Origin: an uncultured Bacilli bacterium
Lineage (GTDB): Bacteria; Bacillota_I; Bacilli_A; RFN20; CAG-826
Assembly (NCBI GenBank): GCA_944363565.1
Contig: CALVUI010000001.1
Span: forward strand, 408,075-472,074
Direction: 5' to 3'
Length of the DNA stretch: 64,000 bases
In this document: positions 3,024-49,584 of the stretch, piece after piece
How the letters are laid out: every line of letters begins with the position of its first letter
How positions within the stretch are numbered: the stretch's first letter is position 1
Notes under the pieces: generated by a model
Databases searched by the model: none
What the model saw: only the letters and a program-made list of their open reading frames with translations
Told to the model about the DNA's origin: nothing
Position numbers and translations under genes: made by a program

Positions 3024-5686
3024 AGTTTCCCTTCCTTCAGACCCTCGTAGTGGCGGCGGCAGCGCGGGCAGACCGTGCCCTGGGAGGGCATGACCTTGGC
3101 TTCCTCTTCGACCAATTCGAGCTTGGCGACCCCATATAGGCGCGCCCCTTCCTCGCTTCCGGCCTCCTTGAGGGCGGCCTTGAGCTTTTCGTCAGCGACC
3201 TTCAGATAGAGGTCGGCGTCGGCGAAGGAACCATAAAGCCCCTTGGCCCGTCCTTCTTCCAAAAGCCGGTTGGCTTCCTCGCGGCTCTTCTTGAAGGCCT
3301 CGTAGAGGGACAATACTTCTTCACTTGGCTTCTCGGGTTTTGGCATCCTCTCGAGTTGGAGGGAGCCCTTGTGTTCCTTGAGAGGCAAATTGGCGTAGAC
3401 CTCTTCCATCGTGAAGGGCAGGATCGGATTGAGTAACCGGGCCAGGTCGTAGGCCGCCTGGAAAAGGACGTCCTGGATGGCCTTGCGCCTTGGACTGCTC
3501 GGAGCATCGCAATAGAGGATGTCCTTGCTGATGTCGAGGTAGAAGCCCGAGAGGTCGCTGACCAGGAAGGACATGGCCTTCGAGAGGACCCCGGAGAAGT
3601 CGAAGCGTTCATAGCGTTCGAGGATCTCGCTTTCGCATTCCTTTAGTTTTTCGTAGATGAAGGAATCGGCCAGGGAATATTCGTATTTCCCCTCCTCGTG
3701 GACATAGGCCTGCCCCCCGTCTTGGAGGTTACCCAACAAAAAGCGGAAGGTGTTGCGGAGCTTGCGGTAGGTCTCGCTCACGGCCTTCATGGCCGTCTCC
3801 CCCATTTTGACGTCGCTTCTGAAGTCGACGCTCGAGGAGTAGAGGCGCAGGAGGTCGGCCCCCATTTCGTTGGCGACTTTGCTGGGATCGACGCCGTTGC
3901 CCTTGCTCTTGCTCATCTTCTGCCAGTTCTCGTCCATGACCCAGCCATGGGTCAGGCAGACCTTGAAGGGAGCCTTCCCGGTCAGGGCGACCGAAAGGGT
4001 CAGCGAGGCGTTGAACCAACCGCGGTACTGGTCGTTGCCCTCCAAATAGAGGTCGCTGGGGAAAGGCAAGCCGCGTTTCCTGAGGACCGCGTTCCAGGAG
4101 GAACCGGAGTCGAACCAAACGTCCATGATGTCGGTTTCCTTCCGGAAGTTCCCGTTCGGCGATAAGGCGTTCTTGTAGCCCGGCGGCAAAAGCTCGGCGG
4201 CTGAGAGTTCGTACCAGGCATCGCTTCCCTTTTCTTTGATAAGGTCGGCGATATGGGCGAAGACTTCCTTCTCCAGAATGGGCGAACCGTCTTCGTTGTA
4301 GATGATGGGGATGGGAACGCCCCAGGCCCGTTGGCGGCTGATGCACCAGTCGGTCCGATCCTTGACCATGTTGGCCATCTTCATCTCGCCCCAGGAAGGA
4401 TCCCATTTGACCTTCTTGATCTCGCCAAGGATCTCGTCCTTGATCGGAGCGATCGAGCAGAACCACTGGGGGGTGGCCCTGAAGATCAGGGGGCAGCCGG
4501 TCCGCCAATCGTGGGGGTAGCTATGGACCAGGTCCTCTTCCTTGAGAAGAGCCCCGGCTTCCCTTAGCTCCTCGATGACCTCATCGTTGGCCTTTTCGTA
4601 GAAGAGTCCGTCGATCCGCTTGTCCTCGGGCATGTGGACGATGCCGCGCGAATCGACCGGGCAGAAGGGCTTGATCCCATAACGGAAGCTGACGTTGAAG
4701 TCGTCGACCCCGTGGTCGGGGGCGGTGTGGACGAGGCCGGTGCCGCTATCGTCGGTCACGAAGTCGGCGAGCAAAAACGGCGATTCCCGTTCGTACAAAG
4801 GATGGTGGGCCTTGACCCCTTCGAGCTCGGCCCCCTTGTAGGTGGCGATGAGGCGGCAGTTCGTTAGCCCTAAAGTTTCCTTTAATTTCTCCTCGAGGTT
4901 CTTGAGGAAGACCAAGGTCCCCTTGTCGGTTTCATAGACCCCGTATTCGAAACGGGGATTGAGGGTAATGGCGAGGTTGCTAGGAATGGTCCAGGGGGTC
5001 GTGGTCCAGATCAAAGCCTTGGAGCCTTCCGGCAGCAATCCCTTCCCGTCCTTGATCGGGAAGGCGACGTAGAGGGTCTTGACCGGGACGTCCTTGTAGT
5101 CGATCTCGGCTTCGGCCAAGGCCGATTCGCTGACCGGGGACCAATAGACGGGCTTGACGCCCTTGTAGATGAGGCCCTTGAGGGCCATCTCCCCGAAGAC
5201 CTCGATCTCGGCCGCTTCGAATTCCTTGTCCAAAGTCAGATAGGGATGTTCGTAGTTCCCGAGGACCCCGAGGCGGTGGATCTGATTGAGTTGTCTCTGA
5301 ACCTGGGTAAGGGCGTATTCCCGGCATTTCTTTCGGAATTCGACGATCCCCATCTTCTTGCGGTCGATGCCGCTTTTGGAAAGCTGGACCTCGATCGGGA
5401 GACCGTGGGTGTCGAAACCGAAGATGAAGGGCGTCTCGTAGCCCATCATGTTCTTGTAGCGGACCACGAAGTCCTTCAAGAGGCGGTTCAGCATATGGCC
5501 GCAGTGGATGTCGCCGTTGGCGTAGGGCGGCCCGTCGTGGAGGGTGTAGCGTTCCGGCCCCCGGCCTTCGTTCATCGATTCATACAAATCGAGTTTGTCC
5601 CATTTTTCCAGCAAGGCCGGCTCTTTCTTCGGGAGATTGCCCCGCATCTCGAAAGCGGTCTTGGGTAGTAAAAGTTCCTTTTCCAT
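3002..5686 (-). CDS. ileS: Isoleucine--tRNA ligase
   Basis: 894 aa with HIGH-type (HCGHMLN) and KMSKS (KMSKSKGN) class I signatures, the CP1 editing region and a C-terminal Zn finger (CPRCRRHY...CKRCQG). Confidence 0.95.
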   Translation of the reverse strand: MEKELLLPKTAFEMRGNLPKKEPALLEKWDKLDLYESMNEGRGPERYTLHDGPPYANGDIHCGHMLNRLLKDFVVRYKNMMGYETPFIFGFDTHGLPIEVQLSKSGIDRKKMGIVEFRKKCREYALTQVQRQLNQIHRLGVLGNYEHPYLTLDKEFEAAEIEVFGEMALKGLIYKGVKPVYWSPVSESALAEAEIDYKDVPVKTLYVAFPIKDGKGLLPEGSKALIWTTTPWTIPSNLAITLNPRFEYGVYETDKGTLVFLKNLEEKLKETLGLTNCRLIATYKGAELEGVKAHHPLYERESPFLLADFVTDDSGTGLVHTAPDHGVDDFNVSFRYGIKPFCPVDSRGIVHMPEDKRIDGLFYEKANDEVIEELREAGALLKEEDLVHSYPHDWRTGCPLIFRATPQWFCSIAPIKDEILGEIKKVKWDPSWGEMKMANMVKDRTDWCISRQRAWGVPIPIIYNEDGSPILEKEVFAHIADLIKEKGSDAWYELSAAELLPPGYKNALSPNGNFRKETDIMDVWFDSGSSWNAVLRKRGLPFPSDLYLEGNDQYRGWFNASLTLSVALTGKAPFKVCLTHGWVMDENWQKMSKSKGNGVDPSKVANEMGADLLRLYSSSVDFRSDVKMGETAMKAVSETYRKLRNTFRFLLGNLQDGGQAYVHEEGKYEYSLADSFIYEKLKECESEILERYERFDFSGVLSKAMSFLVSDLSGFYLDISKDILYCDAPSSPRRKAIQDVLFQAAYDLARLLNPILPFTMEEVYANLPLKEHKGSLQLERMPKPEKPSEEVLSLYEAFKKSREEANRLLEEGRAKGLYGSFADADLYLKVADEKLKAALKEAGSEEGARLYGVAKLELVEEEAKVMPSQGTVCPRCRRHYEGLKEGKLCKRCQG

Positions 5687-6810: not shown

Positions 6811-8010
6811 CTATTCGCCCCGGGTCAAGGTCGAGAGGCGGTGCCCGTCGTCCCAGAGGGATCCCCGGTAGGTCGATGAGATGGAGAGCATGCCGAGCAA
6901 GGAAGCCATCGAAGGATCGACGGCCCCGACGGCGCGCGGTATGTAACGGATGAGGGGGTGGCTGCCCCGCGAGGTATCGAGGAGCTTTTCGATGCCGTAG
7001 AGGAGGCTTCCTCCTCCCCCGAGGACGATCGGGACTCCCAGCAGTTCCCTCGAGGCCTCGGTCCCTTGGGCCTGGCTGAGGGTCAGGATGGCATTGCTCA
7101 GATAGGTCGAGAAATCACGGAAGTATTCCTCGATGACGGCATTGAGGTCCTTTTGCCTGACCTTGAGGTTCCCTTCTTCACCCCGGCAAAGGATCGGCTG
7201 GTAAAGGGTGTTCCTGGTGTCGTAGCCGAAGTCTTCCTTGAGGTTCTTGGCTTCTAAGGGCGAAAGGCCGAGCAAGGAAACCAGACGGTCGTTCAGGTCG
7301 TCGCCCCCGTAATGGAAGACGCAGCTCGAATAAGGGCTGCCTTCGCTAAGGAGGCTGACCGAGGTCAGACGGGCCCCGATGTCGACGTAGAAGGAGGTCT
7401 TCGGCATCCTAGGATCGGCCTCGAGCAAGGTGGCGAAGAGAAAGGAATCGATGGCGGTCCTATTGACCCGGAAGCCGGCCTTGGCCACCGTCCGCTTGTA
7501 GGAGGAGACCAGTTTCTCCGGCAGGGTATGGACCTTGGCCTGGACCGAAAGGGAGACGGCCTTTTCCCCGATCGGGGGGTTCTTGTAATGGTCCTTGCCG
7601 TCAAGAGTGAAGAAATCGGGGACGATGTCGACGGTGGCGTTCCCGCCCGGGACGGCCTCGCGGTTGACGAGGGCCAGGACATTGCTGACGTCGAGGGTCG
7701 AGACGCTATCGGAGACGGTCTGGCTGGTCTTGACGTTTTGGTAAATCTCCATCCCGATGCAGGGCAAGACCAGGGACAGGGAATCGGCGTTGACCTTGAG
7801 GGAAAGGCCTTCGTCCTTGATCGAGGAAAAAGAGGCGATGACGCGGGCCACTTCCCCTTCGTCCTTGATTTCCCCGGCTTCGACCAGGCCAGGGGGAAGG
7901 GGACGTTCGTCGTAATACAAAACGGCCGGATCCTTGGAAGAGAGGCCGATCATGAACTTCACTTTGTCGTCGGCTATTTCCAGCACGGCGGAAGGGCGTT
8001 TGGCATCCAT
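6811..8010 (-). CDS. ftsA: Cell division protein FtsA (actin-like ATPase), divergent
   Basis: 399 aa, immediately upstream of ftsZ, with an actin-fold C-terminal GGGGSLL.GI motif. The N-terminal phosphate loop is diverged. Confidence 0.65.
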   Translation of the reverse strand: MDAKRPSAVLEIADDKVKFMIGLSSKDPAVLYYDERPLPPGLVEAGEIKDEGEVARVIASFSSIKDEGLSLKVNADSLSLVLPCIGMEIYQNVKTSQTVSDSVSTLDVSNVLALVNREAVPGGNATVDIVPDFFTLDGKDHYKNPPIGEKAVSLSVQAKVHTLPEKLVSSYKRTVAKAGFRVNRTAIDSFLFATLLEADPRMPKTSFYVDIGARLTSVSLLSEGSPYSSCVFHYGGDDLNDRLVSLLGLSPLEAKNLKEDFGYDTRNTLYQPILCRGEEGNLKVRQKDLNAVIEEYFRDFSTYLSNAILTLSQAQGTEASRELLGVPIVLGGGGSLLYGIEKLLDTSRGSHPLIRYIPRAVGAVDPSMASLLGMLSISSTYRGSLWDDGHRLSTLTRGE

Positions 8011-8081
8011 GGCGAAATTTTAATCTAGGCTATGCCTAAAGGGAAAGGAAATCGGTGGTTTTTGGTAATTTTCCGGTAAAG

Positions 8082-8109
8082 AAAACCCGCCGGGAGGCAT
8101 ACCGGCGGG
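8082..8109 (-). terminator. Rho-independent terminator or attenuator between the small membrane ORF and ftsA
   Basis: Minus-strand hairpin CCCGCCGG-tatgcctc-CCGGCGGG followed by TTTT. Confidence 0.45.
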
Positions 8110-8129
8110 GAAAGGAGGATGGAAACGGT

Positions 8130-8366
8130 CTAAAGTGGCAATTCGAGACGGTAGTCCTGACTGGTCGACGAACTGGTTTCCTCGTCCTTTGGGGCGGAAG
8201 TGAGCTGGGCGGCCGCCGCTTCCTCGGCCATCCGGTAGGAAATGCCGACCGGGATGGCGCTGACGCCTAGCAATGCCACGCCCAATAGACCGAAGAGGGC
8301 GAGGCGGCGGAACATGAAGTAACCGCGGCGGTGTCCGGTTTTTTCGAGTTTGTCTTTCATGGTCAT
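8130..8366 (-). CDS. Small single-TM membrane protein, possibly an FtsL-like division protein
   Basis: 78 aa with one predicted TM helix. Its start overlaps the rsmH stop (ATGA). It sits where ftsL occurs in mraZ-rsmH-ftsL clusters. Confidence 0.4.
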   Translation of the reverse strand: MTMKDKLEKTGHRRGYFMFRRLALFGLLGVALLGVSAIPVGISYRMAEEAAAAQLTSAPKDEETSSSTSQDYRLELPL

Positions 8367-9274
8367 TTCCTTTCTATCGCCCTGAGTTTCGCGCTTTTGG
8401 CGCGGGGATTGGCGATCATCTCTTCTTCGCTGGGAAGGATCGGTTTCTTGGTGAGGAGACGATAGGGGGCTTCTTCGGGCAATGGTCCGTCGATGCGGCT
8501 CCCCTCGATGACGGAGAGACTCTTGAAGGCATCCTTGACGAGGCGGTCCTCGAGGGAATGGAAGGAAATGACGGCCATGACGCCGCCTTCCCTGAGGAAG
8601 GAGGGCATTTCCTTCAGCATGGTTTCGAGGCTATCGAGTTCCCCGTTCACTTCGATGCGGATGGCCTGGAAGGTCTGTTTGGCCGGGTGGCCCTTTTTGA
8701 GGAGGCTTTTCTTGCTCTTCCCCTCCTTGATGGCCTCGACGAGGTCGAAGGTCGTCTTGAGGGGGCGGTGCTTGACGATGGAATGGGCGATGGAACGGGC
8801 TTCCCGTTCTTCGCCATAGAGGTAGATGAGGCGCGAGAGGGCGGCTTCCTCGTACTCGTTGACGACCTTTTCGGCCGTGAGGGGACTGGAAGTATCCATC
8901 CGCATGTCGAGGGGACCGTCGTAGCGGTAGCTGAAGCCCCGCTCCCCCTCGTCGAACTGGGGCGAGGAAACGCCGAGGTCGGCGATGATGCCATCGACGC
9001 CGTCGATTCCCATTTCCATGAGGATACTGGGGGCTTCGGCGAAGTTGGCGTGGATGAGGTCGAAGTTCTGGTAGCCGTTTTCGAGAAGGCGTTCCCGGCT
9101 TTCCCTGAGGGCTTCTTCGTCGAGGTCGAAGGCGATCAGGCGGCTGCCCTTGGCTTTTTCGAGGATGGCTAGCGAGTGCCCGGCCCGTCCGAGGGTCAGA
9201 TCGACGTAGGTTCCCTCTCTAGAAGGAAGGAGGCCGATGGTTTCCTCTAAGAGGACCGACTTATGCCCGGACAT
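8363..9274 (-). CDS. rsmH: 16S rRNA (cytosine1402-N4)-methyltransferase RsmH (MraW)
   Basis: 303 aa SAM-dependent methyltransferase with the conserved MraW fold. Directly follows mraZ. Confidence 0.9.
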   Translation of the reverse strand: MSGHKSVLLEETIGLLPSREGTYVDLTLGRAGHSLAILEKAKGSRLIAFDLDEEALRESRERLLENGYQNFDLIHANFAEAPSILMEMGIDGVDGIIADLGVSSPQFDEGERGFSYRYDGPLDMRMDTSSPLTAEKVVNEYEEAALSRLIYLYGEEREARSIAHSIVKHRPLKTTFDLVEAIKEGKSKKSLLKKGHPAKQTFQAIRIEVNGELDSLETMLKEMPSFLREGGVMAVISFHSLEDRLVKDAFKSLSVIEGSRIDGPLPEEAPYRLLTKKPILPSEEEMIANPRAKSAKLRAIERK

Positions 9275-9276
9275 CC

Positions 9277-9741
9277 CTATTCCCCTTTCGCGAGAGAGGA
9301 GGCCAGTTCCTCGAAGTCTTCGCCTTCACTAACGTAGGCTTCGTAGGTTTCCTTCTTCCAGATCTCGAAGTGGTCGAGGGCCCCGAGCAAGAGGGCTTCC
9401 TTTTCGAGTCCGAGCTTTTCGAGCAGTTCCTTCCGGATGGCCAGGCGTCCGTGTCCGTCGACCTCGAGCTTTTCGGCGCTCCCGAAGGATAAACGCAAGA
9501 GCTTCCGGGCTTTGGGATCGAGGAAGTCGTAGGCTTCGAACTTTTCGACGAGGGCGTCGAAGGCGGCAGCGGGATAGACGGAGAGGCAACCTTCGTAACC
9601 ACGCATGAGATAGTAGGGCCCCTTCTCCTCGCCGACTAGGCGCGGCGGGAGCTGGAGGCGTCCCTTCTCATCGAGGGTCCGGTTGTAGGTTCCGATGAAT
9701 TTTCCCACTTTTTCCCACCTGACGCATAGAGGATAAACCAT
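9277..9741 (-). CDS. mraZ: Transcriptional regulator MraZ. The ORF-track start at 9741 is probably too long; the likely true start is GTG at about 9708.
   Basis: Duplicated MraZ-type motif (LDEKGRLQLP ... VDGHGRLAIR). The first 11 codons overlap two perfect GTGGGAAAA direct repeats, the MraZ box. Confidence 0.8.
   Translation of the reverse strand: MVYPLCVRWEKVGKFIGTYNRTLDEKGRLQLPPRLVGEEKGPYYLMRGYEGCLSVYPAAAFDALVEKFEAYDFLDPKARKLLRLSFGSAEKLEVDGHGRLAIRKELLEKLGLEKEALLLGALDHFEIWKKETYEAYVSEGEDFEELASSLAKGE
9700..9718 (-). promoter_or_regulatory. Two direct repeats GTGGGAAAA with 10-bp phasing, a candidate MraZ operator
   Basis: Minus strand GGTGGGAAAAAGTGGGAAAATTC. This matches the GTGGG-type MraZ-binding repeats found upstream of mraZ in other bacteria. 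Confidence 0.45.
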
Positions 9742-9898
9742 CGTAGGGGCTTTGGGTAGGGGCTAGTTGGGGAAAAATCAACTCTTTTCGACAAAATTAA
9801 CGAGCAACGTGAAAAATTACATATTAGTAGTTATTTGGTAGTTTTCCGTTATATATAAATACTTTGTATTTAAAATCATCAATCGAACTGGGTCACCA

Positions 9899-44043: not shown

Positions 44044-44070
44044 GGCATCCTCTTTAGCACTGTCAATATC
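44044..44070. promoter_or_regulatory. CIRCE operator (HrcA binding site)
   Basis: TTAGCACTG-tcaatatca-GAGTGCTAA, versus the consensus TTAGCACTC-N9-GAGTGCTAA. Confidence 0.85.
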
Positions 44071-44084
44071 AGAGTGCTAATAAT

Positions 44085-44173: not shown

Positions 44174-44198
44174 AAAAAGCCCGGCCAATTTGCCGGGC
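44174..44198 (-). terminator. Rho-independent terminator downstream of the RDD-family gene
   Basis: GCCCGGC-caattt-GCCGGGC with a minus-strand TTTTTGAT. Confidence 0.55.
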
Positions 44199-44228
44199 TA
44201 TTAATCGCTGTAGACTGGGTCTTCTGCC

Positions 44229-44645
44229 CTATCTCCGGCGCTTGTCGATGACCAGGGTGTCGCTCAGGCGGTCGAAGATCGAGCGTTGGCTATGGACGGC
44301 CAGCATGTAGACGGCATTGGCGAGGACCGCCGGGAGGAGGCCCTTGGTCACGGCCCTGATGAAGGCGTCGCGGAGGGTGAAGGGCGAACCGTCGCTATGG
44401 ATGGCCTTGATGCCGGCCACCATGAAACCGAAGGTCATGCCGCCGCTGAGGGCGCTCACGAGCGTACATAGGAAGACATAAACCAAATAGGCGAAGACGC
44501 AGGAAAGGACGGCGATGAGGAAGATCGATTCGCCGAGGACTTCGAAGTGGTACATCAAAATGGCGATCCCGACCCCGAAGAGGCAAGCCAAAACCTCATC
44601 GAAGAGGTAGGCCAGTAGACGTTTTTCGTAGCGTGCGATTCCCAT
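44229..44645 (-). CDS. RDD-family membrane protein
   Basis: 138 aa with three TM helices. N-terminal R...LAYLFD and C-terminal SIFDRLSDTLVI match the RDD pattern. Confidence 0.55.
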   Translation of the reverse strand: MGIARYEKRLLAYLFDEVLACLFGVGIAILMYHFEVLGESIFLIAVLSCVFAYLVYVFLCTLVSALSGGMTFGFMVAGIKAIHSDGSPFTLRDAFIRAVTKGLLPAVLANAVYMLAVHSQRSIFDRLSDTLVIDKRRR

Positions 44646-44650
44646 CTTTT

Positions 44651-45745
44651 TCAGTATAGCGCAACTAGGACCCTATCAAGGAGCATTATTCCGCGGTCGG
44701 TGCAAGAAACCCGGCCATTCTCCCCCACCTCCAAAAGCCCCTCCTCCACGAGCTTGGGATACTTTTCCTTATATCGGTCAAGGAAGGAAAAGCCAAAACG
44801 GGTGGCGAAGTCCCCGAGGGCAAAGCCTTTGGCCAAACGGAGGTTGGTGAGGAAGTAGTATTCGAGTTTGTCTTGTAGGCTCGGTTCTTCCTCATAGACC
44901 GGCTCGGGGCCATGGGAAAGATAGGAGGTCAGGCTCTTGGTGTTCTGATAATGCCTTCCCCCGAGGTAGCCGGCCGCCCCGATCCCGACCCCGACGTAGG
45001 GTAGGTCCTGCCAATAGACGAGGTTGTGCCGGCTCTCAAAACCGGGCCAGGCGAAATTGCTGACCTCGTACCTTTGATAACCGGCTTGTCGAAGGGTTGA
45101 AAGGAGTTCTTCGTAAAAGGCCGCCGAGGCATCGCCGGAGGGCTCCTCATATCCTTTGTTATAAAAAGAGGTATGGGGAGAGACGGTGAGGGAATAACTC
45201 GATAGATGGGGGACCTTGAAGGAAAGAAGGGTCTTGATGTCGGATTGTAGTTCCTCCATCGTCTCCCCCGGGAGGCCGTAAATTATGTCCAAATTCAAAT
45301 TATCGATCCCGGCTTTCCTCAGGGCCGAGACGGCTTTGAAGACGTCGTCTCCGGTGTGGTGTCTGCCCATCAACTTCAATAGACGCGGGCTGAAGGACTC
45401 GACCCCGAGGGAGACGCGGTTGACCCCATAAGCGGCATAAAAGTGGGCCTTTTCCTCATCGATCGACTCGGGATTGCCTTCGAAGGTGAACTCCCCACCC
45501 TTCTCGAGCATTGGGGCGAGGACGTCCAAAAGGGTCTTCGTTTGTCGAAGATTCAAAACGCTCGGGGTTCCACCCCCGACGTAGATGGTCTTGTAGGGAC
45601 CCTTTCCATAGGAGGCGATTTCGTTAAAAAGAACCGCGAGGTAGCGGTCCGCATAATCCTCGCGGTAATAGCCCTTCACGAAGTCGCAGTAGCCGCAGAG
45701 GGTCTGGCAGAAGGGGATATGGACGTAGAGGGACGAGGAGCCGAT
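44651..45745 (-). CDS. hemW: Radical-SAM heme chaperone HemW (HemN-like). 5' end extended beyond the listed GTG to include the Cys motif.
   Basis: The listed ORF (from GTG 45679) lacks the radical-SAM motif. The same frame continues upstream as SLYVHIPFCQTLCGYCDF, with no canonical start. The candidate start is ATC at 45745 with GAGGAG 7 nt upstream. Confidence 0.7.
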   Translation of the reverse strand: MGSSSLYVHIPFCQTLCGYCDFVKGYYREDYADRYLAVLFNEIASYGKGPYKTIYVGGGTPSVLNLRQTKTLLDVLAPMLEKGGEFTFEGNPESIDEEKAHFYAAYGVNRVSLGVESFSPRLLKLMGRHHTGDDVFKAVSALRKAGIDNLNLDIIYGLPGETMEELQSDIKTLLSFKVPHLSSYSLTVSPHTSFYNKGYEEPSGDASAAFYEELLSTLRQAGYQRYEVSNFAWPGFESRHNLVYWQDLPYVGVGIGAAGYLGGRHYQNTKSLTSYLSHGPEPVYEEEPSLQDKLEYYFLTNLRLAKGFALGDFATRFGFSFLDRYKEKYPKLVEEGLLEVGENGRVSCTDRGIMLLDRVLVALY

Positions 45746-45746
45746 C

Positions 45747-46139
45747 TCACTTCTCCTCTTCTTTATGGCTTTCGTCGTATTCTTCCATGGCCTGGATCGT
45801 CTTTTCGTCCTCGACGGGTTCGAGGATCCGCGCCATGTTTTCGGCCGCCGCCTCTTCCGGGGTCGGCGGGACTTCCTTCTTGCTTTGCTTGTTCATCTCC
45901 TTGGCGTAGGTTTCCATTTCCTTCTTGGTCCCCTCGTCATCGACGTCGACCAGGAGGCGGTTGAGTTCTTCCTCGGCGATTTCCTTGTCGCTTTTGGGCT
46001 TTTCGGTGTTCTGGAAGGGCTTGACGTACTTCTTGACCAGGATGACGGCGGCGACGATGACGCCGAAGATGAGCAAGAGTCCGACGATGATGACGGCCGG
46101 GTTGCTCCAGAAGGCGGCGGAAAGGGTGAAGATGTTCAT
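45747..46139 (-). CDS. Small N-terminally membrane-anchored acidic protein
   Basis: 130 aa with one N-terminal TM helix, then a K/E-rich coiled region. Coupled to both neighbours by 4-nt overlaps. Confidence 0.45.
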   Translation of the reverse strand: MNIFTLSAAFWSNPAVIIVGLLLIFGVIVAAVILVKKYVKPFQNTEKPKSDKEIAEEELNRLLVDVDDEGTKKEMETYAKEMNKQSKKEVPPTPEEAAAENMARILEPVEDEKTIQAMEEYDESHKEEEK

Positions 46140-47689
46140 TTGTTTTCTCCTCTTTGACTCGGGGTATAGACGAATTTGTTCTTGACCTGCATCTTGGAAT
46201 AATAGCCCTCGCTGGCCAGTTTATCCATGGAGGTGCGGGCCGTTTCATAGGCGCAGCGGTTGAATTTCTTGTATTGCTGGATGACGTAGTAACGCCCCAT
46301 CGTGCAATGGAAGGCGTAGAAGCGGGCCTGCCCCTTGCTGAGAGCCGGGTTGGTCTCAAGGAGGTAACGGGCGTAGTCCCTCGCCTCCTTTTCGCTTAGG
46401 GCCTCGGGCTCATTTTGGTAGCCTCTAGGCAAAGCCGCCTTCCCGACGTCCTTGGGCGAAAGGCGCGGCAGGACCGTCTTTGGTTCTTCCTTCTTCGGGG
46501 TTTCGGCCGGGACGGGTTCTTCTTCCTCTTCCAACATGACCTCTTCCCTAGGAAGGGGTTCTTCGACTTTGGTTTCGGAGACCGTTTCTTCTTTGGCGAT
46601 CGCGGGTTCTTCCCTGACTTCCGGGACCGGCTGTTCTTCCGGCTTGGTCTCGATCTCCTTCAGGATCCCGCGGAGGGCCGCTTCGTTTTGTTCTTGCGGG
46701 TCCAACCGCCGATATTCCGGACGATAGACCTCGACCTTTTCCTTCTGCCCTTCCTGGAAGAGGGACTCGGCTAGAGGGGTCAAAATCTGGCAGGCCAGTA
46801 AAACCATGTAGGTCAGGTCGCCGGTCTTCTGGGTCTCGGCCCCGGCTTCCTGGTAACGGGAGTCCTTCTTGAGGAATTGCGATAAGGGCAAATAGTAGGC
46901 CGCCTTTCCGAAACCCTCGGACTCGAGGTAGCGGAGTCCCAAGAGGACGGCACACTCGAAGGAGTGACGCGCGAATGGCATGACGTTGTCGGCGAAGAAG
47001 GAGGCGGCCACGGCCTTGACCAGAGGCGAGGCCCCCGAGGCTTCGAGGCCCTTGTACATGTCCTCCATCAAAACCTCGATCGAGCCGAAGGGGGCGAAGC
47101 CGTAGACGGAGTCGAGACCCCCGATGTTGTAGAGGCGCTTCGGATCTTCGTGACGGTAGAAGGAGGTCAATTCGGGAGTCAGTTCCATCCTAGCCAAGGC
47201 ATCGGGCAAAAAGTCCTCGCCGCTAGGGCCCCCGAGGGCGAAGTAGGCATCGACTGCCTTGAGGTAGGCGTAGATCCCGCGGCCCGTCGGATCCTCGTCT
47301 TCGTAGCGGCCGCTTAACATGGCCTTGAGGGCGGAGTCGCTGACGCTGACCCCTTCCCCGGCTCTAATTCCTTGGAGGGCCGGGAACATGTAGGTCCGCC
47401 TCAGGGCGTTTCTACTAGCCCCTTCGGTCGAGCCGAGCGAAGCGGTCAGGGCCTCTAGGGCCTTTTCGGCCTCGTCGATCTTCTTCTTGATGGCGGGCGT
47501 GAGGGTCAGGTGGAAGGGATGGCCCCCGATGGTCTTGAAGGGGCTGAAACCGATCGAATTGGCATTGCGGTAACTCACCACCTCCTGCCAGATGTAGTCG
47601 ACGCCGCCCATCCCCATGACGCGCCTAAGCGCCTTGCGGCTCAAATAGGACTCGTCGGTGAACTTCACGGCCTGGGTGGAAACTTCCAT
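46136..47689 (-). CDS. Fic/Doc-fold-like protein with a degenerate active-site motif, an E/P-rich linker and a C-terminal winged-helix-like domain
   Basis: The segment VMPFARHSFECAVLLG is colinear with the Fic motif HPFxDGNGRxxRLL, but the catalytic His and the DGNGR residues are replaced. A central acidic Pro/Glu-rich low-complexity segment of ~90 aa is present. The C-terminal region is basic and wHTH-like. Confidence 0.4.
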   Translation of the reverse strand: MEVSTQAVKFTDESYLSRKALRRVMGMGGVDYIWQEVVSYRNANSIGFSPFKTIGGHPFHLTLTPAIKKKIDEAEKALEALTASLGSTEGASRNALRRTYMFPALQGIRAGEGVSVSDSALKAMLSGRYEDEDPTGRGIYAYLKAVDAYFALGGPSGEDFLPDALARMELTPELTSFYRHEDPKRLYNIGGLDSVYGFAPFGSIEVLMEDMYKGLEASGASPLVKAVAASFFADNVMPFARHSFECAVLLGLRYLESEGFGKAAYYLPLSQFLKKDSRYQEAGAETQKTGDLTYMVLLACQILTPLAESLFQEGQKEKVEVYRPEYRRLDPQEQNEAALRGILKEIETKPEEQPVPEVREEPAIAKEETVSETKVEEPLPREEVMLEEEEEPVPAETPKKEEPKTVLPRLSPKDVGKAALPRGYQNEPEALSEKEARDYARYLLETNPALSKGQARFYAFHCTMGRYYVIQQYKKFNRCAYETARTSMDKLASEGYYSKMQVKNKFVYTPSQRGENK

Positions 47690-47735
47690 GGCACAAGTAT
47701 ATAGCCGAACTACCGAAAAACTACCAAATTCGCAT

Positions 47736-47764
47736 CGAAAAAGGCCGAATCACCTAGGATCGGC
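47736..47764 (-). terminator. Rho-independent terminator of lepA
   Basis: GGCCGA-atcacctagga-TCGGCC with a minus-strand TTTTTCGAT just after the lepA stop. Confidence 0.5.
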
Positions 47765-47766
47765 CT

Positions 47767-49584
47767 TCATTCTTCTTCCGAGGAGAGGACGCTCATGAAG
47801 GCTTCCTGCGGGACCTCGACGCTCCCGACCGCCTTCATCCGCTTCTTCCCTTCCTTTTGCTTCTCGAGGAGTTTCTTCTTCCTGGAGATGTCGCCACCAT
47901 AGCACTTGGCCAGGACGTCTTTCCGGACGGCCTTGATGTCGGCCCTGGCGATGACCTTGCCGTTGATGGCGGCCTGGACCGGGACCTCGAAGAGCTGGCG
48001 CGGGATGATTTCCTTTAACTTGCTGACGGTCTTGAGGCCCCTTCTATAGGCATCGGGACGGTAGACGATGCTCGAGAGGGCGTCGATGGTGTCCCCATTG
48101 AGGAGGATATCCATTTTGGCCAGATCGCTTTCGCGGTAACCGTCGAACTCGTAGTCCAAGGAGGCATAGCCCTTGGTCGAGGACTTGAGGCGGTCGAAGA
48201 AGGAATAGATGATCTCGCTTAGGGGCAAGAGGTATTTGACTTCCTGGCGGTAGTCGTCGAAATAGACGAGGTCCTGGTAGATGCCGCGCCGCTTTTCGCA
48301 GAGCTCCATCACCGCCCCGACGTATTCCTTCGGGGTCATGAGGGAGGCCCTAACGTAAGGTTCTTCGATCTTCGAAACCTTACTCGGATCCGGGAGGTCG
48401 CTCGGGTTGGAGATGTACTTGGAGGTCCCGTCGGTCAGGTGGACCAAATAGACGACGCTCGGGGCGGTCAGGATGAGGTCGAGGCCGTATTCCCTTTCGA
48501 GCCGCTCCTGGATGACATCCATGTGGAGGAGGCCGAGGAAGCCACAACGGAAGCCAAAGCCGAGGGCCTTGCTATTTTCCGGGGTAAAGGAAAGGGAGGC
48601 GTCGTTCAAGGAAAGCTTTTCGAGGGCTTCCTTGAGGTTTTCGTAATCCTTGGAGTCACTCGGATATAGGCCCGAATAGACCATCGGGGAAACCTTCCTG
48701 AAACCGGGCAGGGGTTCCTTGGCCCGGTTGGCATCCAAGGTGATGGTCTCGCCCGGGAAAAGGTCATGGATGTCCTTGATCGAGGCGGCCAGATAGCCCA
48801 CTTCCCCGACGCCGAGTTCCCCGGTCCGCACTTCGTCCGGGGTCCTGACCCCGACCTCGGTCACGAGGTAGGACTTCTTGCTTTCCATCAGATAGATGGT
48901 GTCCCCTTCCTTGACCTTGCCGTCCTTGACCCGGATGTTGGCCACGACCCCGCGGTAGGAATCGTAATGGCTATCGAAGACGAGGGCCCTAAGGGGATCC
49001 TCGTCCTTCCCCGATGGCGGGGGTACCAGTTCGACGATCTTTTCCAAAACCCCGTCGACCCCCTGGCCGGTTTTGGCACTGACCAGACACGCGTCGGCAC
49101 AGCCGATCCCGATCCGTTCCTCGATTTCCTTCTTGCAGGCGTTGATGTCGGCGCTTGGCAAATCGATCTTGTTGATGACCGGGATGACCATGAGGTCGGC
49201 CTCGACCGCCAAATAGACGTTGGCCAGGGTCTGGGCCTCGACACCTTGGGTGGCATCGACGACCAGCAAGGCCCCCTCGCAGGCCGAAAGGCTCCGCGAG
49301 ACCTCGTAGGAGAAGTCGACGTGCCCGGGGGTGTCGATGAGGTTGAAGAGATAGGTTTCGCCGTTTTTGGCCTTGTAGGTAAGCGAGACGGCGTTGAGCT
49401 TGATGGTAATGCCCCTCTCCCGTTCGAGGTCCATCGAATCGAGCATCTGGGGCTTCAGAAGCCTAGCCTCGACCGTGCCGGTCCGTTCCAAAATCCGATC
49501 GGCCAAGGTCGACTTCCCGTGGTCGATGTGGGCGATGATGCAGAAGTTCCGGATCTTGTCTTTGCTGAAGGCCATGCGAGGCAT
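47767..49584 (-). CDS. lepA: Elongation factor 4 (LepA)
   Basis: GTPase G1 motif [17 protein letters not shown] and the LepA-specific C-terminal domain. 605 aa. Confidence 0.95.

What the first reader, a model, noticed from the sequence alone, without database searches (positions are those of the whole stretch)
46136..47689. Fic-fold-like protein with a degenerate active-site motif (candidate pseudoenzyme), an E/P-rich linker and a wHTH-like tail
The residues VMPFARHSFECAVLLG align position for position with the Fic motif HPFxDGNGRxxRLL. The catalytic His is replaced by Met and the DGNGR residues by RHSFE, which predicts no AMPylation activity. A ~90-aa acidic Pro/Glu-rich low-complexity segment separates this domain from a basic C-terminal domain resembling a winged helix. 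The gene is co-oriented with lepA and hemW, and the downstream small membrane protein is coupled to it by a 4-nt overlap. It may be a repurposed Fic scaffold (regulator or antitoxin-like), but the assignment is tentative.
Basis: inference. Interest (0 to 1): 0.5.

Follow-up and report, generated by a model that had tools for sequence, protein, structure and literature searches.

The report
Dead Fic enzyme turned DNA-binding regulator
A gene kept by hundreds of uncultured gut and rumen bacteria encodes a protein with the Fic enzyme fold that has lost its catalytic residues but kept a DNA-binding tail. A conserved DNA motif in front of this gene and of the cell-division genes suggests it now works as a gene regulator.

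Summary

The architecture has four parts:
- a 62-aa N-terminal extension of unassigned fold
- a dead Fic domain
- a disordered acidic E/P linker of about 100 aa
- a basic, nearly invariant winged-helix tail

The family (about 300 clusters at 50% identity, about 430 species) always lies in the order lepA, this gene, small membrane protein, hemW.

A new finding is an 18-nt motif, TTAGTAGTTTTTTRGTTG. It sits at this gene's promoter in 80 of 83 loci. It recurs upstream of mraZ and ftsA in the window and in related genomes.

Best model (inferred): an autoregulated transcription factor built on a dead Fic scaffold, linked to the cell-division genes. The binder of the motif is not proven.

The parts
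46136..47689 (-). Gene for the 517-aa Fic-like protein (called FICL in this report)
   Evidence: ORF. 109 homologues, most of them covering 97-100% of the query. 308 clusters at E<=1e-30.
47504..47689 (-). N-terminal extension, residues 1-62: three helices plus a beta-hairpin, fold unassigned. It is not part of canonical Fic proteins.
46709..47503 (-). Fic-fold domain, residues 63-327, catalytically degenerate
47351..47368 (-). Remnant of the class II inhibitory-helix motif, IRAGEG, residues 108-113
   Evidence: Aligned with SLAIEN (4rgl) and TVAIEG (Fic-1). The full [ST]xxxE[GN] motif is present in 1 of 239 family members and E[GN] in 50 of 239.
46937..46984 (-). Degenerate Fic signature VMPFARHSFECAVLLG, residues 236-251. 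The residues are M for His, R-H for D-G, S for Asn, F for Gly, E for Arg and V for the second Arg.
46400..46708 (-). Disordered acidic Glu/Pro-rich linker, residues 328-430, variable in length and sequence among homologues
   Evidence: Composition. pLDDT below 50. Alignment gaps.
46139..46399 (-). Basic C-terminal winged helix-turn-helix, residues 431-517. The putative recognition helix YETARTSMDKL and the wing KNKFVYTP are nearly invariant.
47709..47728 (-). Conserved promoter motif. The window version is TTTGGTAGTTTTTCGGTAGT; the family consensus is aaaTTAGTAGTTTTTT(A/G)GTTg.
   Evidence: PWM score 23.5 bits. Present once per locus in 80 of 83 related loci, in each locus examined just upstream of this gene.
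47698..47703 (-). -10-like TATATA, 8 nt before the ATG, with no Shine-Dalgarno sequence (short-leader or leaderless arrangement)
   Evidence: Read. In relatives TATAAT lies 6-9 nt before the ATG in 32 loci.
47738..47765 (-). Hairpin plus T-run directly after the lepA stop codon (terminator-like)
   Evidence: Read: GGCCG-N13-CGGCC-TTTTT. The loop is too long for the scanner used.
45747..46139 (-). Translationally coupled partner: a 130-aa protein with one transmembrane helix, a conserved juxtamembrane stretch KKYxKPFxxxEKPKSDKEIAEEEVNRLL and an acidic tail
   Evidence: ATGA overlap. Homologue present in about 78 of 80 species loci, with a 4-nt overlap in 32. Transmembrane helix and absence of an inhibitory motif.
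44229..45745 (-). Rest of the probable transcription unit: hemW (44651 to about 45745) and an RDD-family membrane protein (44229-44645). A terminator lies at 44178-44199.
   Evidence: Pfam. Terminator scan. Synteny.
9823..9842 (+). Second copy of the motif (ATTAGTAGTTATTTGGTAGT), 115-134 nt upstream of mraZ and antisense to it. A third repeat unit lies 11 nt further on.
   Evidence: 27.7 bits, the best hit in the window. The same position and orientation are seen in L087, L088, L090, L092-L094, L096, L098 and L120.
8061..8080 (+). Weaker copy of the motif (TTTGGTAATTTTCCGGTAAA), 51-70 nt upstream of ftsA and antisense to it
   Evidence: 13.5 bits. Sites in the same place in 13 of 32 related compact dcw loci.

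Best explanation
The gene encodes a catalytically dead member of the class II Fic family (the SoFic/CbFic2 type, a Fic domain followed by a C-terminal winged helix). The Fic fold, the flap region and a vestige of the inhibitory helix are retained. The nucleotide-binding and catalytic loop is destroyed, so the protein cannot AMPylate by the known mechanism.

I propose that the Fic-like body now serves as a scaffold for dimerisation or partner binding. The basic, nearly invariant winged helix, tethered by a flexible acidic linker, would bind the conserved motif TTAGTAG-N4-TTRGTTG, two 7-mers with an 11-bp period. The protein would thereby regulate its own operon (this gene, the small membrane protein, hemW and the RDD protein). 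In many genomes of the lineage it would also regulate the mraZ and ftsA-ftsZ promoters.

Shown:
- Fic homology and fold
- family-wide loss of catalytic residues
- the domain architecture
- strict synteny
- existence, specificity and conservation of the motif at the three promoters

Inferred:
- that this protein is what binds the motif
- the direction of regulation
- the role of the membrane partner

For: Dead site. There is no His in 239 sequences. Neither motif Arg column shows Arg among the residues tallied, while P, F and Asn are kept.

Cis element. The motif has near-maximal information content in 59 unique sites, at a preferred distance of about 38 nt from TATAAT. It occurs once per 13-kb locus in 80 of 83 loci, with no secondary hit above 15 bits in about 1 Mb. 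In each locus examined the hit lies just upstream of this gene.

Window. The window has 4 hits above 13 bits, against 0.08 expected. They lie at this gene, upstream of mraZ (two overlapping hits) and upstream of ftsA.

Related compact dcw loci. In 32 loci there are 24 hits in 14 kb upstream of mraZ or ftsA against 3 hits in 217 kb elsewhere, a 123-fold enrichment. Of the 24 hits, 21 are in the same orientation.

Co-occurrence. In the window, and in one genome held on a single contig (L003/L093), the gene and all three site classes occur together. In three further cases the FICL locus and the dcw locus come from the same assembly, sample or contig length (L021/L090; L002, L012/L088; P0003/L087), and there too the dcw sites accompany the gene.

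Autoregulation pattern. The site at this gene's own promoter is the most widely conserved of the three classes. That is the usual signature of an autoregulated factor.

Not MraZ. MraZ-type boxes (AAAGTGG/GTGGG repeats; consensus AAAGTG[T/G] per PMC8475190) are present separately at the mraZ start.
Against: No experiment links this protein to the motif. Any other factor of the lineage, for example an OmpR/PhoB-type response regulator (these also bind 11-bp-spaced direct repeats), could be the binder, with this gene merely a target.

The CbFic2 tail binds DNA without sequence specificity.

A DNA-binding domain on a 100-aa acidic tether is unusual for a transcription factor.

The dcw sites are found in only 15 of 32 compact dcw loci. 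They are absent in L089, whose MraZ is 59% identical to the window's, the third-closest recovered.

The recognition helix is invariant, so no protein-DNA covariation test is possible.

In the window the motif lies nearer the -10 element (24 nt) than in most relatives (38 nt), so the regulatory logic may differ between species.

The loss of activity is predicted from sequence and was not measured.
Confidence: 0.5

Rival explanations
1. Dead-Fic adaptor. The protein works through protein-protein contacts: the retained flap docks a peptide, and the partner is the membrane protein or HemW. Its winged helix binds DNA only non-specifically, or binds a protein or RNA. The TTAGTAG motif belongs to a different transcription factor that co-regulates this operon with the division genes.
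For: The flap-flanking residues Y178-R179 and P200 are invariant, as in canonical Fic proteins. A tightly coupled, conserved membrane partner exists. That partner reads through in frame into hemW in L029 and L035. The CbFic2 tail binds DNA non-specifically. Precedent from the title and abstract listed plus my own knowledge: BepC, a Bartonella FIC-domain effector with a non-canonical motif, acts by recruiting GEF-H1 (PMC7842960).
Against: This model does not explain why the winged helix is the most conserved part of the protein. It also does not explain why the motif is essentially universal at this gene's promoter. No other candidate factor was identified.
Confidence: 0.3
2. The protein is still an enzyme, using a non-canonical active site (migrated catalytic residues or different chemistry) on the Fic fold.
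For: Fic variants with altered motifs carry out other reactions. Doc is a kinase and AnkX a phosphocholine transferase (own knowledge). PMC4454073 notes that clades lacking key residues may have other functions. The Asn of the GNG triplet is kept in 199 of 239 members.
Against: The position of the catalytic His is not conserved in kind (K, Q, R, M, S, A, V, E, L). Both glycines of the anion hole and both phosphate-binding arginines are gone, and the first Arg is most often Glu. The invariant residues map to structural and flap positions, not to the loop.
Confidence: 0.06
3. A remnant of a Fic toxin-antitoxin or defence module, with the small downstream protein as the cognate antitoxin-like partner.
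For: There is a two-gene arrangement with a 4-nt overlap. Class I Fic toxins are neutralised by small partners (own knowledge; PMC5033356 listed).
Against: The gene is a core gene at one fixed chromosomal position in every species locus examined, with vertical divergence down to 25% identity. The partner is a membrane protein, and only 3 of 79 copies contain [ST]xxxE[GN], at no fixed place. There are no mobile-element features.
Confidence: 0.03
4. The motif resemblance is coincidental and the protein does not have a Fic fold.
For: The window protein on its own gives no Pfam, NCBIfam or PDB sequence hit to Fic.
Against: Profile and structure searches all converge on Fic.
Confidence: 0.01

Closest known systems
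SoFic (Shewanella oneidensis SO_4266; PDB 3EQX, 3ZCN), a class II Fic with a C-terminal winged helix
   Different: SoFic has an intact HPFxxGNGRxxR motif and an inhibitory motif, and it binds ATP. Here all catalytic residues are lost. A 62-aa N-terminal extension and a disordered linker of about 100 aa are added. Sequence identity is about 12-15%.
CbFic2 (Coxiella burnetii; PDB 8CIL)
   Different: CbFic2 is an active AMPylase and deAMPylase of histone H3 with motif HPFDDGNGRIGR and inhibitory TSAIEG. It is a secreted effector and binds DNA non-specifically. Here the protein is a dead, chromosomal core-gene product with a candidate specific operator.
FICD/HYPE and C. elegans Fic-1
   Different: These are eukaryotic, TPR-linked, active on BiP, and have no winged helix. 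The position of the present gene near dnaK reflects the ancestral lepA-hemW-hrcA-grpE-dnaK block, not a demonstrated link to Hsp70.
Non-canonical FIC domains that act by binding, e.g. Bartonella BepC (PMC7842960)
   Same: A Fic fold retained while canonical AMPylation is not the mode of action.
   Different: BepC keeps the His and most of the motif (own knowledge) and is a host-targeted effector. Here the whole loop is lost in a housekeeping-like gene.
BlaI/MecI/CopY winged helix (Pfam Penicillinase_R, PF03965)
   Same: This is the only sequence family that the C-terminal domain resembles. 22 of 25 members hit it weakly, and the alignment places YETARTSMDKL on the recognition helix and FVYTP on the wing.
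   Different: All hits are below the Pfam gathering score (best 16.9 bits for the window protein against 22.6). BlaI-type operators are TACA/TGTA dyads, not TTAGTAG repeats (own knowledge).
OmpR/PhoB-type winged-helix regulators and their direct-repeat boxes
   Same: The motif geometry is the same: two similar half-sites with an 11-bp period overlapping or abutting the -35 element (own knowledge of pho and PhoP boxes; motif).
   Different: There is no receiver domain and no sequence relation. The half-site sequence TTAGTWG is not a box known to me.
MraZ and its boxes
   Same: MraZ is another regulator of the same dcw promoters that binds direct repeats (PMC8475190).
   Different: MraZ-type boxes (GTGGGAAAAAGTGGGAAAA) are present separately at the mraZ start. 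The TTAGTAG motif is distinct and is best conserved at this gene, not at mraZ.

Membership tests
Fic/Fido superfamily (Pfam PF02661 fold) | Alpha-helical Fic core fold with a flap preceding the motif helix | tested here: met
Fic/Fido superfamily (catalytically competent Fic enzymes) | Signature HxFx(D/E)GN(G/K)R with an invariant catalytic His (PMC4454073) | tested here: not met
   The window has MPFARHSFE. There is no His in 239 sequences at that column, and Arg is not among the residues tallied at either motif Arg column.
Class II Fic (intramolecular N-terminal inhibitory helix) | (S/T)xxxE(G/N) motif on a helix N-terminal to the Fic core | tested here: not met
   The helix is present and in register, but the motif is IRAGEG in the window. 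The full motif is present in 1 of 239 members and E[GN] in 50 of 239. It is a vestige only.
Class II Fic-wHTH architecture (SoFic/CbFic2 type) | Fic core followed by a C-terminal winged helix-turn-helix in one polypeptide | tested here: met
Fic enzymes | AMPylation or other nucleotide-derived transfer activity | not testable with these tools
   Needs a biochemical assay. Sequence predicts loss of activity.
Class I FicT/FicA toxin-antitoxin modules | A small adjacent partner supplying the inhibitory (S/T)xxxE(G/N) helix; mobile or variable genomic location | tested here: not met
   The partner is a single-pass membrane protein. The motif occurs in 3 of 79 copies at no fixed position. The locus is fixed in every species locus examined.
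Penicillinase_R (BlaI/MecI/CopY) winged helix, PF03965 | Score at or above the Pfam gathering threshold (22.6 bits) | tested here: not met
   13.2 bits for the whole protein and 16.9 bits for the isolated domain. There are weak hits in 22 of 25 members.
Sequence-specific autoregulated transcription factor (functional class) | A conserved operator at its own promoter across species, plus demonstrated binding | tested here: inconclusive
   The operator-like motif is conserved at the gene's own promoter in 80 of 83 loci, and at mraZ and ftsA. Binding by this protein was not testable.

The most novel reading that the evidence does not exclude
A Fic enzyme scaffold has been converted, in a whole order-level lineage of uncultured gut and rumen Bacilli with genomes of about 1 Mb, into a sequence-specific transcription factor. 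It would recognise TTAGTAG-type direct repeats, autoregulate, and control the minimal cell-division operons (mraZ-rsmH-ftsL-like and ftsA-ftsZ). A co-translated membrane-anchored acidic partner, and the protein's own acidic linker, might modulate DNA binding. If so, this would be the first Fic-derived pseudoenzyme shown to act as a dedicated transcription regulator, and a new division regulator acting beside MraZ.
Probability: 0.35. Interest if true: 0.75.

Novelty: new variant of a known kind. Interest (0 to 1): 0.6.

Why it matters
Fic proteins are studied almost only as enzymes (AMPylases, deAMPylases, kinases, phosphocholine transferases). A large, vertically inherited family in which the fold and the DNA-binding tail are under strong constraint, while the catalytic loop is erased, is a clean natural example of a Fic pseudoenzyme. 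It also bears on an open question in the field: what the winged helix of the abundant SoFic/CbFic2-type proteins is for.

The conserved 18-nt motif gives a directly testable hypothesis (gel shift, footprint, reporter). It also offers an entry point to gene regulation and cell-division control in an abundant but uncultured group of gut and rumen Bacilli. For annotation, the family currently has no model of its own and is mostly unnamed or called 'hypothetical' or 'Fic family protein'.

Tried and rejected
- Single-sequence searches of the window protein (Pfam, NCBIfam, PDB) gave no Fic hit. Only family profiles and structure revealed the homology.
- C-terminal domain in other architectures. The word-limited search returned only short fragments of this family, so no active Fic relative sharing this tail was identified.
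- The motif as an MraZ box. Rejected, because canonical-type MraZ repeats sit elsewhere, at the mraZ start.
- The motif as CIRCE. Rejected, because CIRCE is present separately upstream of hrcA.
- The motif as a promoter for a small antisense RNA at mraZ. Considered because a TATATA box and a hairpin follow it on the + strand. At ftsA the motif abuts the upstream terminator with no -10 element, so this reading is not general. It remains unresolved for mraZ.
- The motif as a generic UP element. Rejected, because it is absent from the other promoters in about 1.5 Mb of related sequence.
- Rfam scan of the window: nothing found.
- I tried to test whether dcw loci without the motif (L101, L102) come from genomes that lack the gene. 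The contigs could not be linked.
- A functional link to DnaK, by analogy with FICD and BiP. No evidence: the hrcA-grpE-dnaK operon has its own promoter and CIRCE, and a terminator separates the two units.
Full report
**1. Observation**

The ORF at 46136..47689 (minus strand) is real: 517 aa with an ATG start. It lies between lepA (47767-49584) and a 130-aa ORF (45747-46139) whose ATG overlaps the stop codon in an ATGA. hemW, an RDD-family gene, hrcA, grpE and dnaK follow on the same strand.

The peptide VMPFARHSFECAVLLG is residues 236-251. Residues 328-430 have 27% Asp+Glu, 15% Pro and pI 4.5. Residues 431-517 have pI 9.6 and net charge +8.

**2. Is it a Fic fold?**

The window protein alone gives nothing. 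Pfam returns only a sub-threshold Penicillinase_R hit, NCBIfam returns nothing, and the PDB search returns only low-complexity noise.

A homologue search found 109 relatives, most of them covering 97-100% of the query and with identities mostly between 25% and 54%. A few carry PF02661 or are named 'Fic family protein' by their source. Scanning 41 aligned members individually gives PF02661 in 21 of them.

A profile of the alignment hits solved Fic proteins:
- CbFic2 (8cil), E 5e-12
- Dde_2494 (4rgl), E 1.7e-11
- M. marinum Fic (7cb8), E 2e-7
- C. elegans Fic-1, SoFic and FICD

In each alignment the family stretch 'vkPFekyneelaallak' lies on 'HPFxDGNGRxxR'.

**3. The active site is dead, family-wide**

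I examined 192 unique sequences (database hits plus genes read from 80 species loci), and then 239 sequences that included the best 150 cluster representatives.

| Canonical position | Residues found in the family |
|---|---|
| Catalytic His | K, Q, R, M, S, A, V, E, L; never His |
| Pro, Phe | kept (237 of 239, 228 of 239) |
| Asn of GNG | mostly kept (199 of 239) |
| Both Gly | lost |
| First Arg | most often Glu |
| Second Arg | hydrophobic or small |

The class II inhibitory helix is present in register. Window IRAGEG aligns with SLAIEN of 4rgl and TVAIEG of Fic-1. The full (S/T)xxxE(G/N) motif survives in 1 of 239 members and E(G/N) in 50.

The invariant residues of the Fic-like body (Y178, R179, P200, P238, F239, D291, T293, Y294) coincide with positions conserved in canonical Fic proteins around the flap and in the C-terminal helix. 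These are structural rather than catalytic features. From established knowledge of the Fic mechanism (His as general base, a GNGR anion hole for the phosphates, PMC4454073), canonical nucleotide transfer is excluded. This is a prediction, not a measurement.

**4. Architecture**

- Residues 63-327 are the Fic-like body.
- Residues 328-430 are disordered (pLDDT below 50 for most of 347-426) and vary in length and sequence between homologues.

This tail is the most conserved part of the protein, at 65% mean column identity against 33% overall.

**5. Distribution and context**

A scan of one genome per species found 429 stretches that encode a relative. The records are metagenome-assembled genomes titled Bacilli, Mollicutes, Erysipelotrichaceae, Bacillales or Candidatus Enteromonas, many of them from rumen and faecal samples. 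One is a 1.06-Mb chromosome.

An exhaustive profile search counts 308 clusters (50% identity) at E<=1e-30. The top 150 listed are nearly all of the same length class (about 430-590 aa) and matched end to end, apart from a few truncated entries.

In nearly all of the 80 species loci, and in long contigs of distant members, the gene order is the same where the contig extends far enough: DinG-like helicase, lepA, this gene, small gene, hemW, (RDD), hrcA, grpE. This is a core, vertically inherited gene, not a mobile toxin or defence gene.

The small downstream protein is itself conserved. It has one transmembrane helix, a juxtamembrane stretch KKYxKPFxxxEKPKSDKEIAEEEVNRLL and an acidic tail. Its gene overlaps this one by 4 nt in 32 loci and otherwise mostly lies within about 20 nt. 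It has no inhibitory-helix motif.

In the window a hairpin plus T-run follows lepA. A terminator follows the RDD gene, and hrcA has its own promoter with CIRCE. The likely transcription unit is therefore this gene, the small gene, hemW and the RDD gene.

**6. A conserved cis element**

Aligning the lepA-proximal intergenic regions of about 70 species revealed a nearly invariant motif, aaaTTAGTAGTTTTTT(A/G)GTTg, in otherwise unconserved sequence. It reads as two 7-mers, TTAGTAG and TTRGTTG, with an 11-bp period.

Its 3' end overlaps a -35-like TTG. TATAAT follows at a preferred 38 nt from the motif start, and the ATG is often only 6-9 nt after the -10 element.

A PWM built from 59 unique sites hits once per locus in 80 of 83 loci. 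There is no secondary hit above 15 bits in about 1 Mb. In each locus examined the hit lies just upstream of this gene.

In the 64-kb window there are 4 hits above 13 bits, against 0.08 expected:
- this gene's promoter (47709-47728, 23.5 bits)
- two overlapping hits 115-134 nt upstream of mraZ (9823-9842, 27.7 bits, plus a third repeat unit 11 nt on)
- one hit 51-70 nt upstream of ftsA (8061-8080, 13.5 bits)

The mraZ and ftsA sites are antisense to those genes.

I then fetched mraZ loci from relatives. In L087, L088 and L090 the motif sits upstream of mraZ and of ftsA in the same position and orientation. The same holds for L093, which is on the same contig as FICL locus L003.

Over 32 metagenomic loci with the compact mraZ-rsmH-small gene-ftsA-ftsZ cluster:
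- There are 24 hits above 15 bits in the 14 kb upstream of mraZ or ftsA, against 3 in the other 217 kb (123-fold).
- Of the 24 hits, 21 are in the same orientation.
- 15 of the 32 loci have at least one site.

The remaining 53 loci, which lack the compact cluster or are too short to show it, have 2 hits in 273 kb.

MraZ-type boxes (GTGGGAAAAAGTGGGAAAA; compare AAAGTG[T/G], PMC8475190) lie separately at the mraZ ribosome-binding site and start. CIRCE lies at hrcA. The motif is therefore neither of these known operators.

**7. Mechanism proposed**

Shown: a dead Fic fold, a conserved basic winged helix on a flexible tether, and a highly specific conserved DNA motif at this gene's promoter and at division-gene promoters.

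Inferred: the winged helix binds the motif, and the protein autoregulates and co-regulates mraZ and ftsA-ftsZ.

The arguments for this protein being the binder are these:
- It follows the comparative-genomics rule that a motif conserved upstream of a DNA-binding protein's own gene across species is usually that protein's operator.
- The site at this gene is the most conserved of the three classes.
- An invariant recognition helix parallels an invariant motif.
- The homologous tail of CbFic2 binds DNA and mediates DNA-induced dimerisation (PMC10628234).

The Fic-like body probably supplies dimerisation, as in class II Fic proteins, which would match two half-sites. It may also supply a docking surface, since the flap is retained.

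If the ATG marks the transcription start, the motif centre lies near -42 at this gene's promoter in most species. It lies nearer the -10 element in the window, and near -60 at ftsA. These positions are compatible with activation or repression, and I cannot decide between them.

It is speculation that the acidic linker, or the acidic tail of the membrane partner, competes with DNA for the basic domain.

My estimates: about 0.9 that this is a catalytically inactive Fic-fold protein with a nucleic-acid-binding winged helix, and about 0.45 that it is the factor binding the motif.

**8. Rivals**

- A dead-Fic adaptor acting through protein contacts, with the motif belonging to another factor such as an OmpR/PhoB-type regulator (0.3).
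- A non-canonical enzyme (0.06).
- A toxin-antitoxin remnant (0.03).
- A coincidental resemblance (refuted).

**9. Comparison and membership**

The protein is a member of the Fic/Fido fold superfamily and shares the SoFic/CbFic2 domain order. It fails the defining catalytic signature and the inhibitory motif, so it should not be filed as a Fic enzyme or AMPylase. It does not reach the threshold of any Pfam winged-helix family. No Pfam or NCBIfam model, and no paper found in two literature searches, describes this family or a Fic-derived transcription factor.

**10. Limits**

No experiment was possible. Whole genomes of the lineage could not be scanned, so the regulon is known only from the window and from loci of about 13 kb. 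The dcw sites are absent in about half of the compact dcw loci, and I could not establish whether those genomes carry the gene.

Noticed in passing
window 45680-45770 (-), 5' end of hemW: The radical-SAM motif SLYVHIPFCQTLCGYC of hemW lies upstream of the first ATG/GTG/TTG of its reading frame. No canonical start codon lies between the preceding in-frame stop and the motif. Candidate starts are ATC (45745-45743, 7 nt after a GAGGAG) or ATA (45766-45764). Homologues use ATG or GTG 5-10 codons before the motif. This is either a rare start codon or a sequence error.
   Followed up: partly
L029 about 7488-8774 and L035 about 3908-5194: In two related genomes the small membrane-protein ORF reads through in frame into hemW, with no stop between them. 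This is a possible fusion and hints that the membrane protein is functionally tied to HemW as much as to the Fic-like protein.
   Followed up: partly
window 9856-9872 (+); L087, L088, L090, L094, L098 upstream of mraZ: A conserved palindrome TAAATAC-N3/4-GTATTTA lies next to the TTAGTAG motif upstream of mraZ. In the four loci measured (window, L087, L088, L090) it lies 21 or 32 nt from the motif start, a difference of one helical turn. Its function is unknown; it could be a second operator or a double -10 element.
   Followed up: partly
upstream of ftsA in L090, L092, L093, L098, L100, L106, L120 and others; window 8011-8040: Relatives carry a palindrome of the type GTATTCTA-N-TAGAATAC just before the ftsA ATG. 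A -10-like hexamer sits only about 6-8 nt before the start codon, with no Shine-Dalgarno sequence. In the window this is TAAAAT followed by 6 nt and then ATG. Both ftsA and the Fic-like gene look leaderless or nearly so.
   Followed up: no
window 9700-9719 (- strand reads GGTGGGAAAAAGTGGGAAAA): Two MraZ-box-like repeats (GTGGGAAAA, 10-bp period) overlap the ribosome-binding site and start of mraZ, and are conserved in all related loci inspected. The true mraZ start is probably the GTG at 9708, not the ATG at 9741 given by the ORF list.
   Followed up: partly
window 44054-44080 (-): A CIRCE element, TTAGCACTC-N9-CAGTGCTAA (one mismatch), overlaps the -35 TTGACA of the hrcA promoter. A strong terminator at 44178-44199 separates this operon from the RDD gene upstream.
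   Followed up: yes
window 6811-9741 (-); L087-L091: The division cluster is reduced to mraZ, rsmH, a small membrane protein (ftsL-like, about 59-79 aa), ftsA and ftsZ. There are no mur or pbp genes in between, as in Mollicutes.
   Followed up: no
window 47516-47524 (-), residues 56-58: An HPF tripeptide (GGHPFHL) occurs in the N-terminal hairpin of the window protein and a few close relatives. It is unrelated to the Fic motif and could mislead a motif search.
   Followed up: yes
record titles of L037, L040, L048, L056, L065, L068, L069, L071: Several 'cleanbin' genome records that carry this Bacilli-type syntenic locus are titled Escherichia coli, Bacteroides uniformis, Roseburia hominis, Prevotella, Sodaliphilus, Hallerella and so on. 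These are almost certainly mislabelled bins.
   Followed up: no
whole window 1-64000: No Rfam family reaches its gathering score anywhere in the 64 kb (no tRNA, rRNA, riboswitch or T-box). GC content is about 54-64% in the 40-54 kb stretch profiled, which is unusually high for this lineage. Related loci range from 26% to 61%.
   Followed up: no
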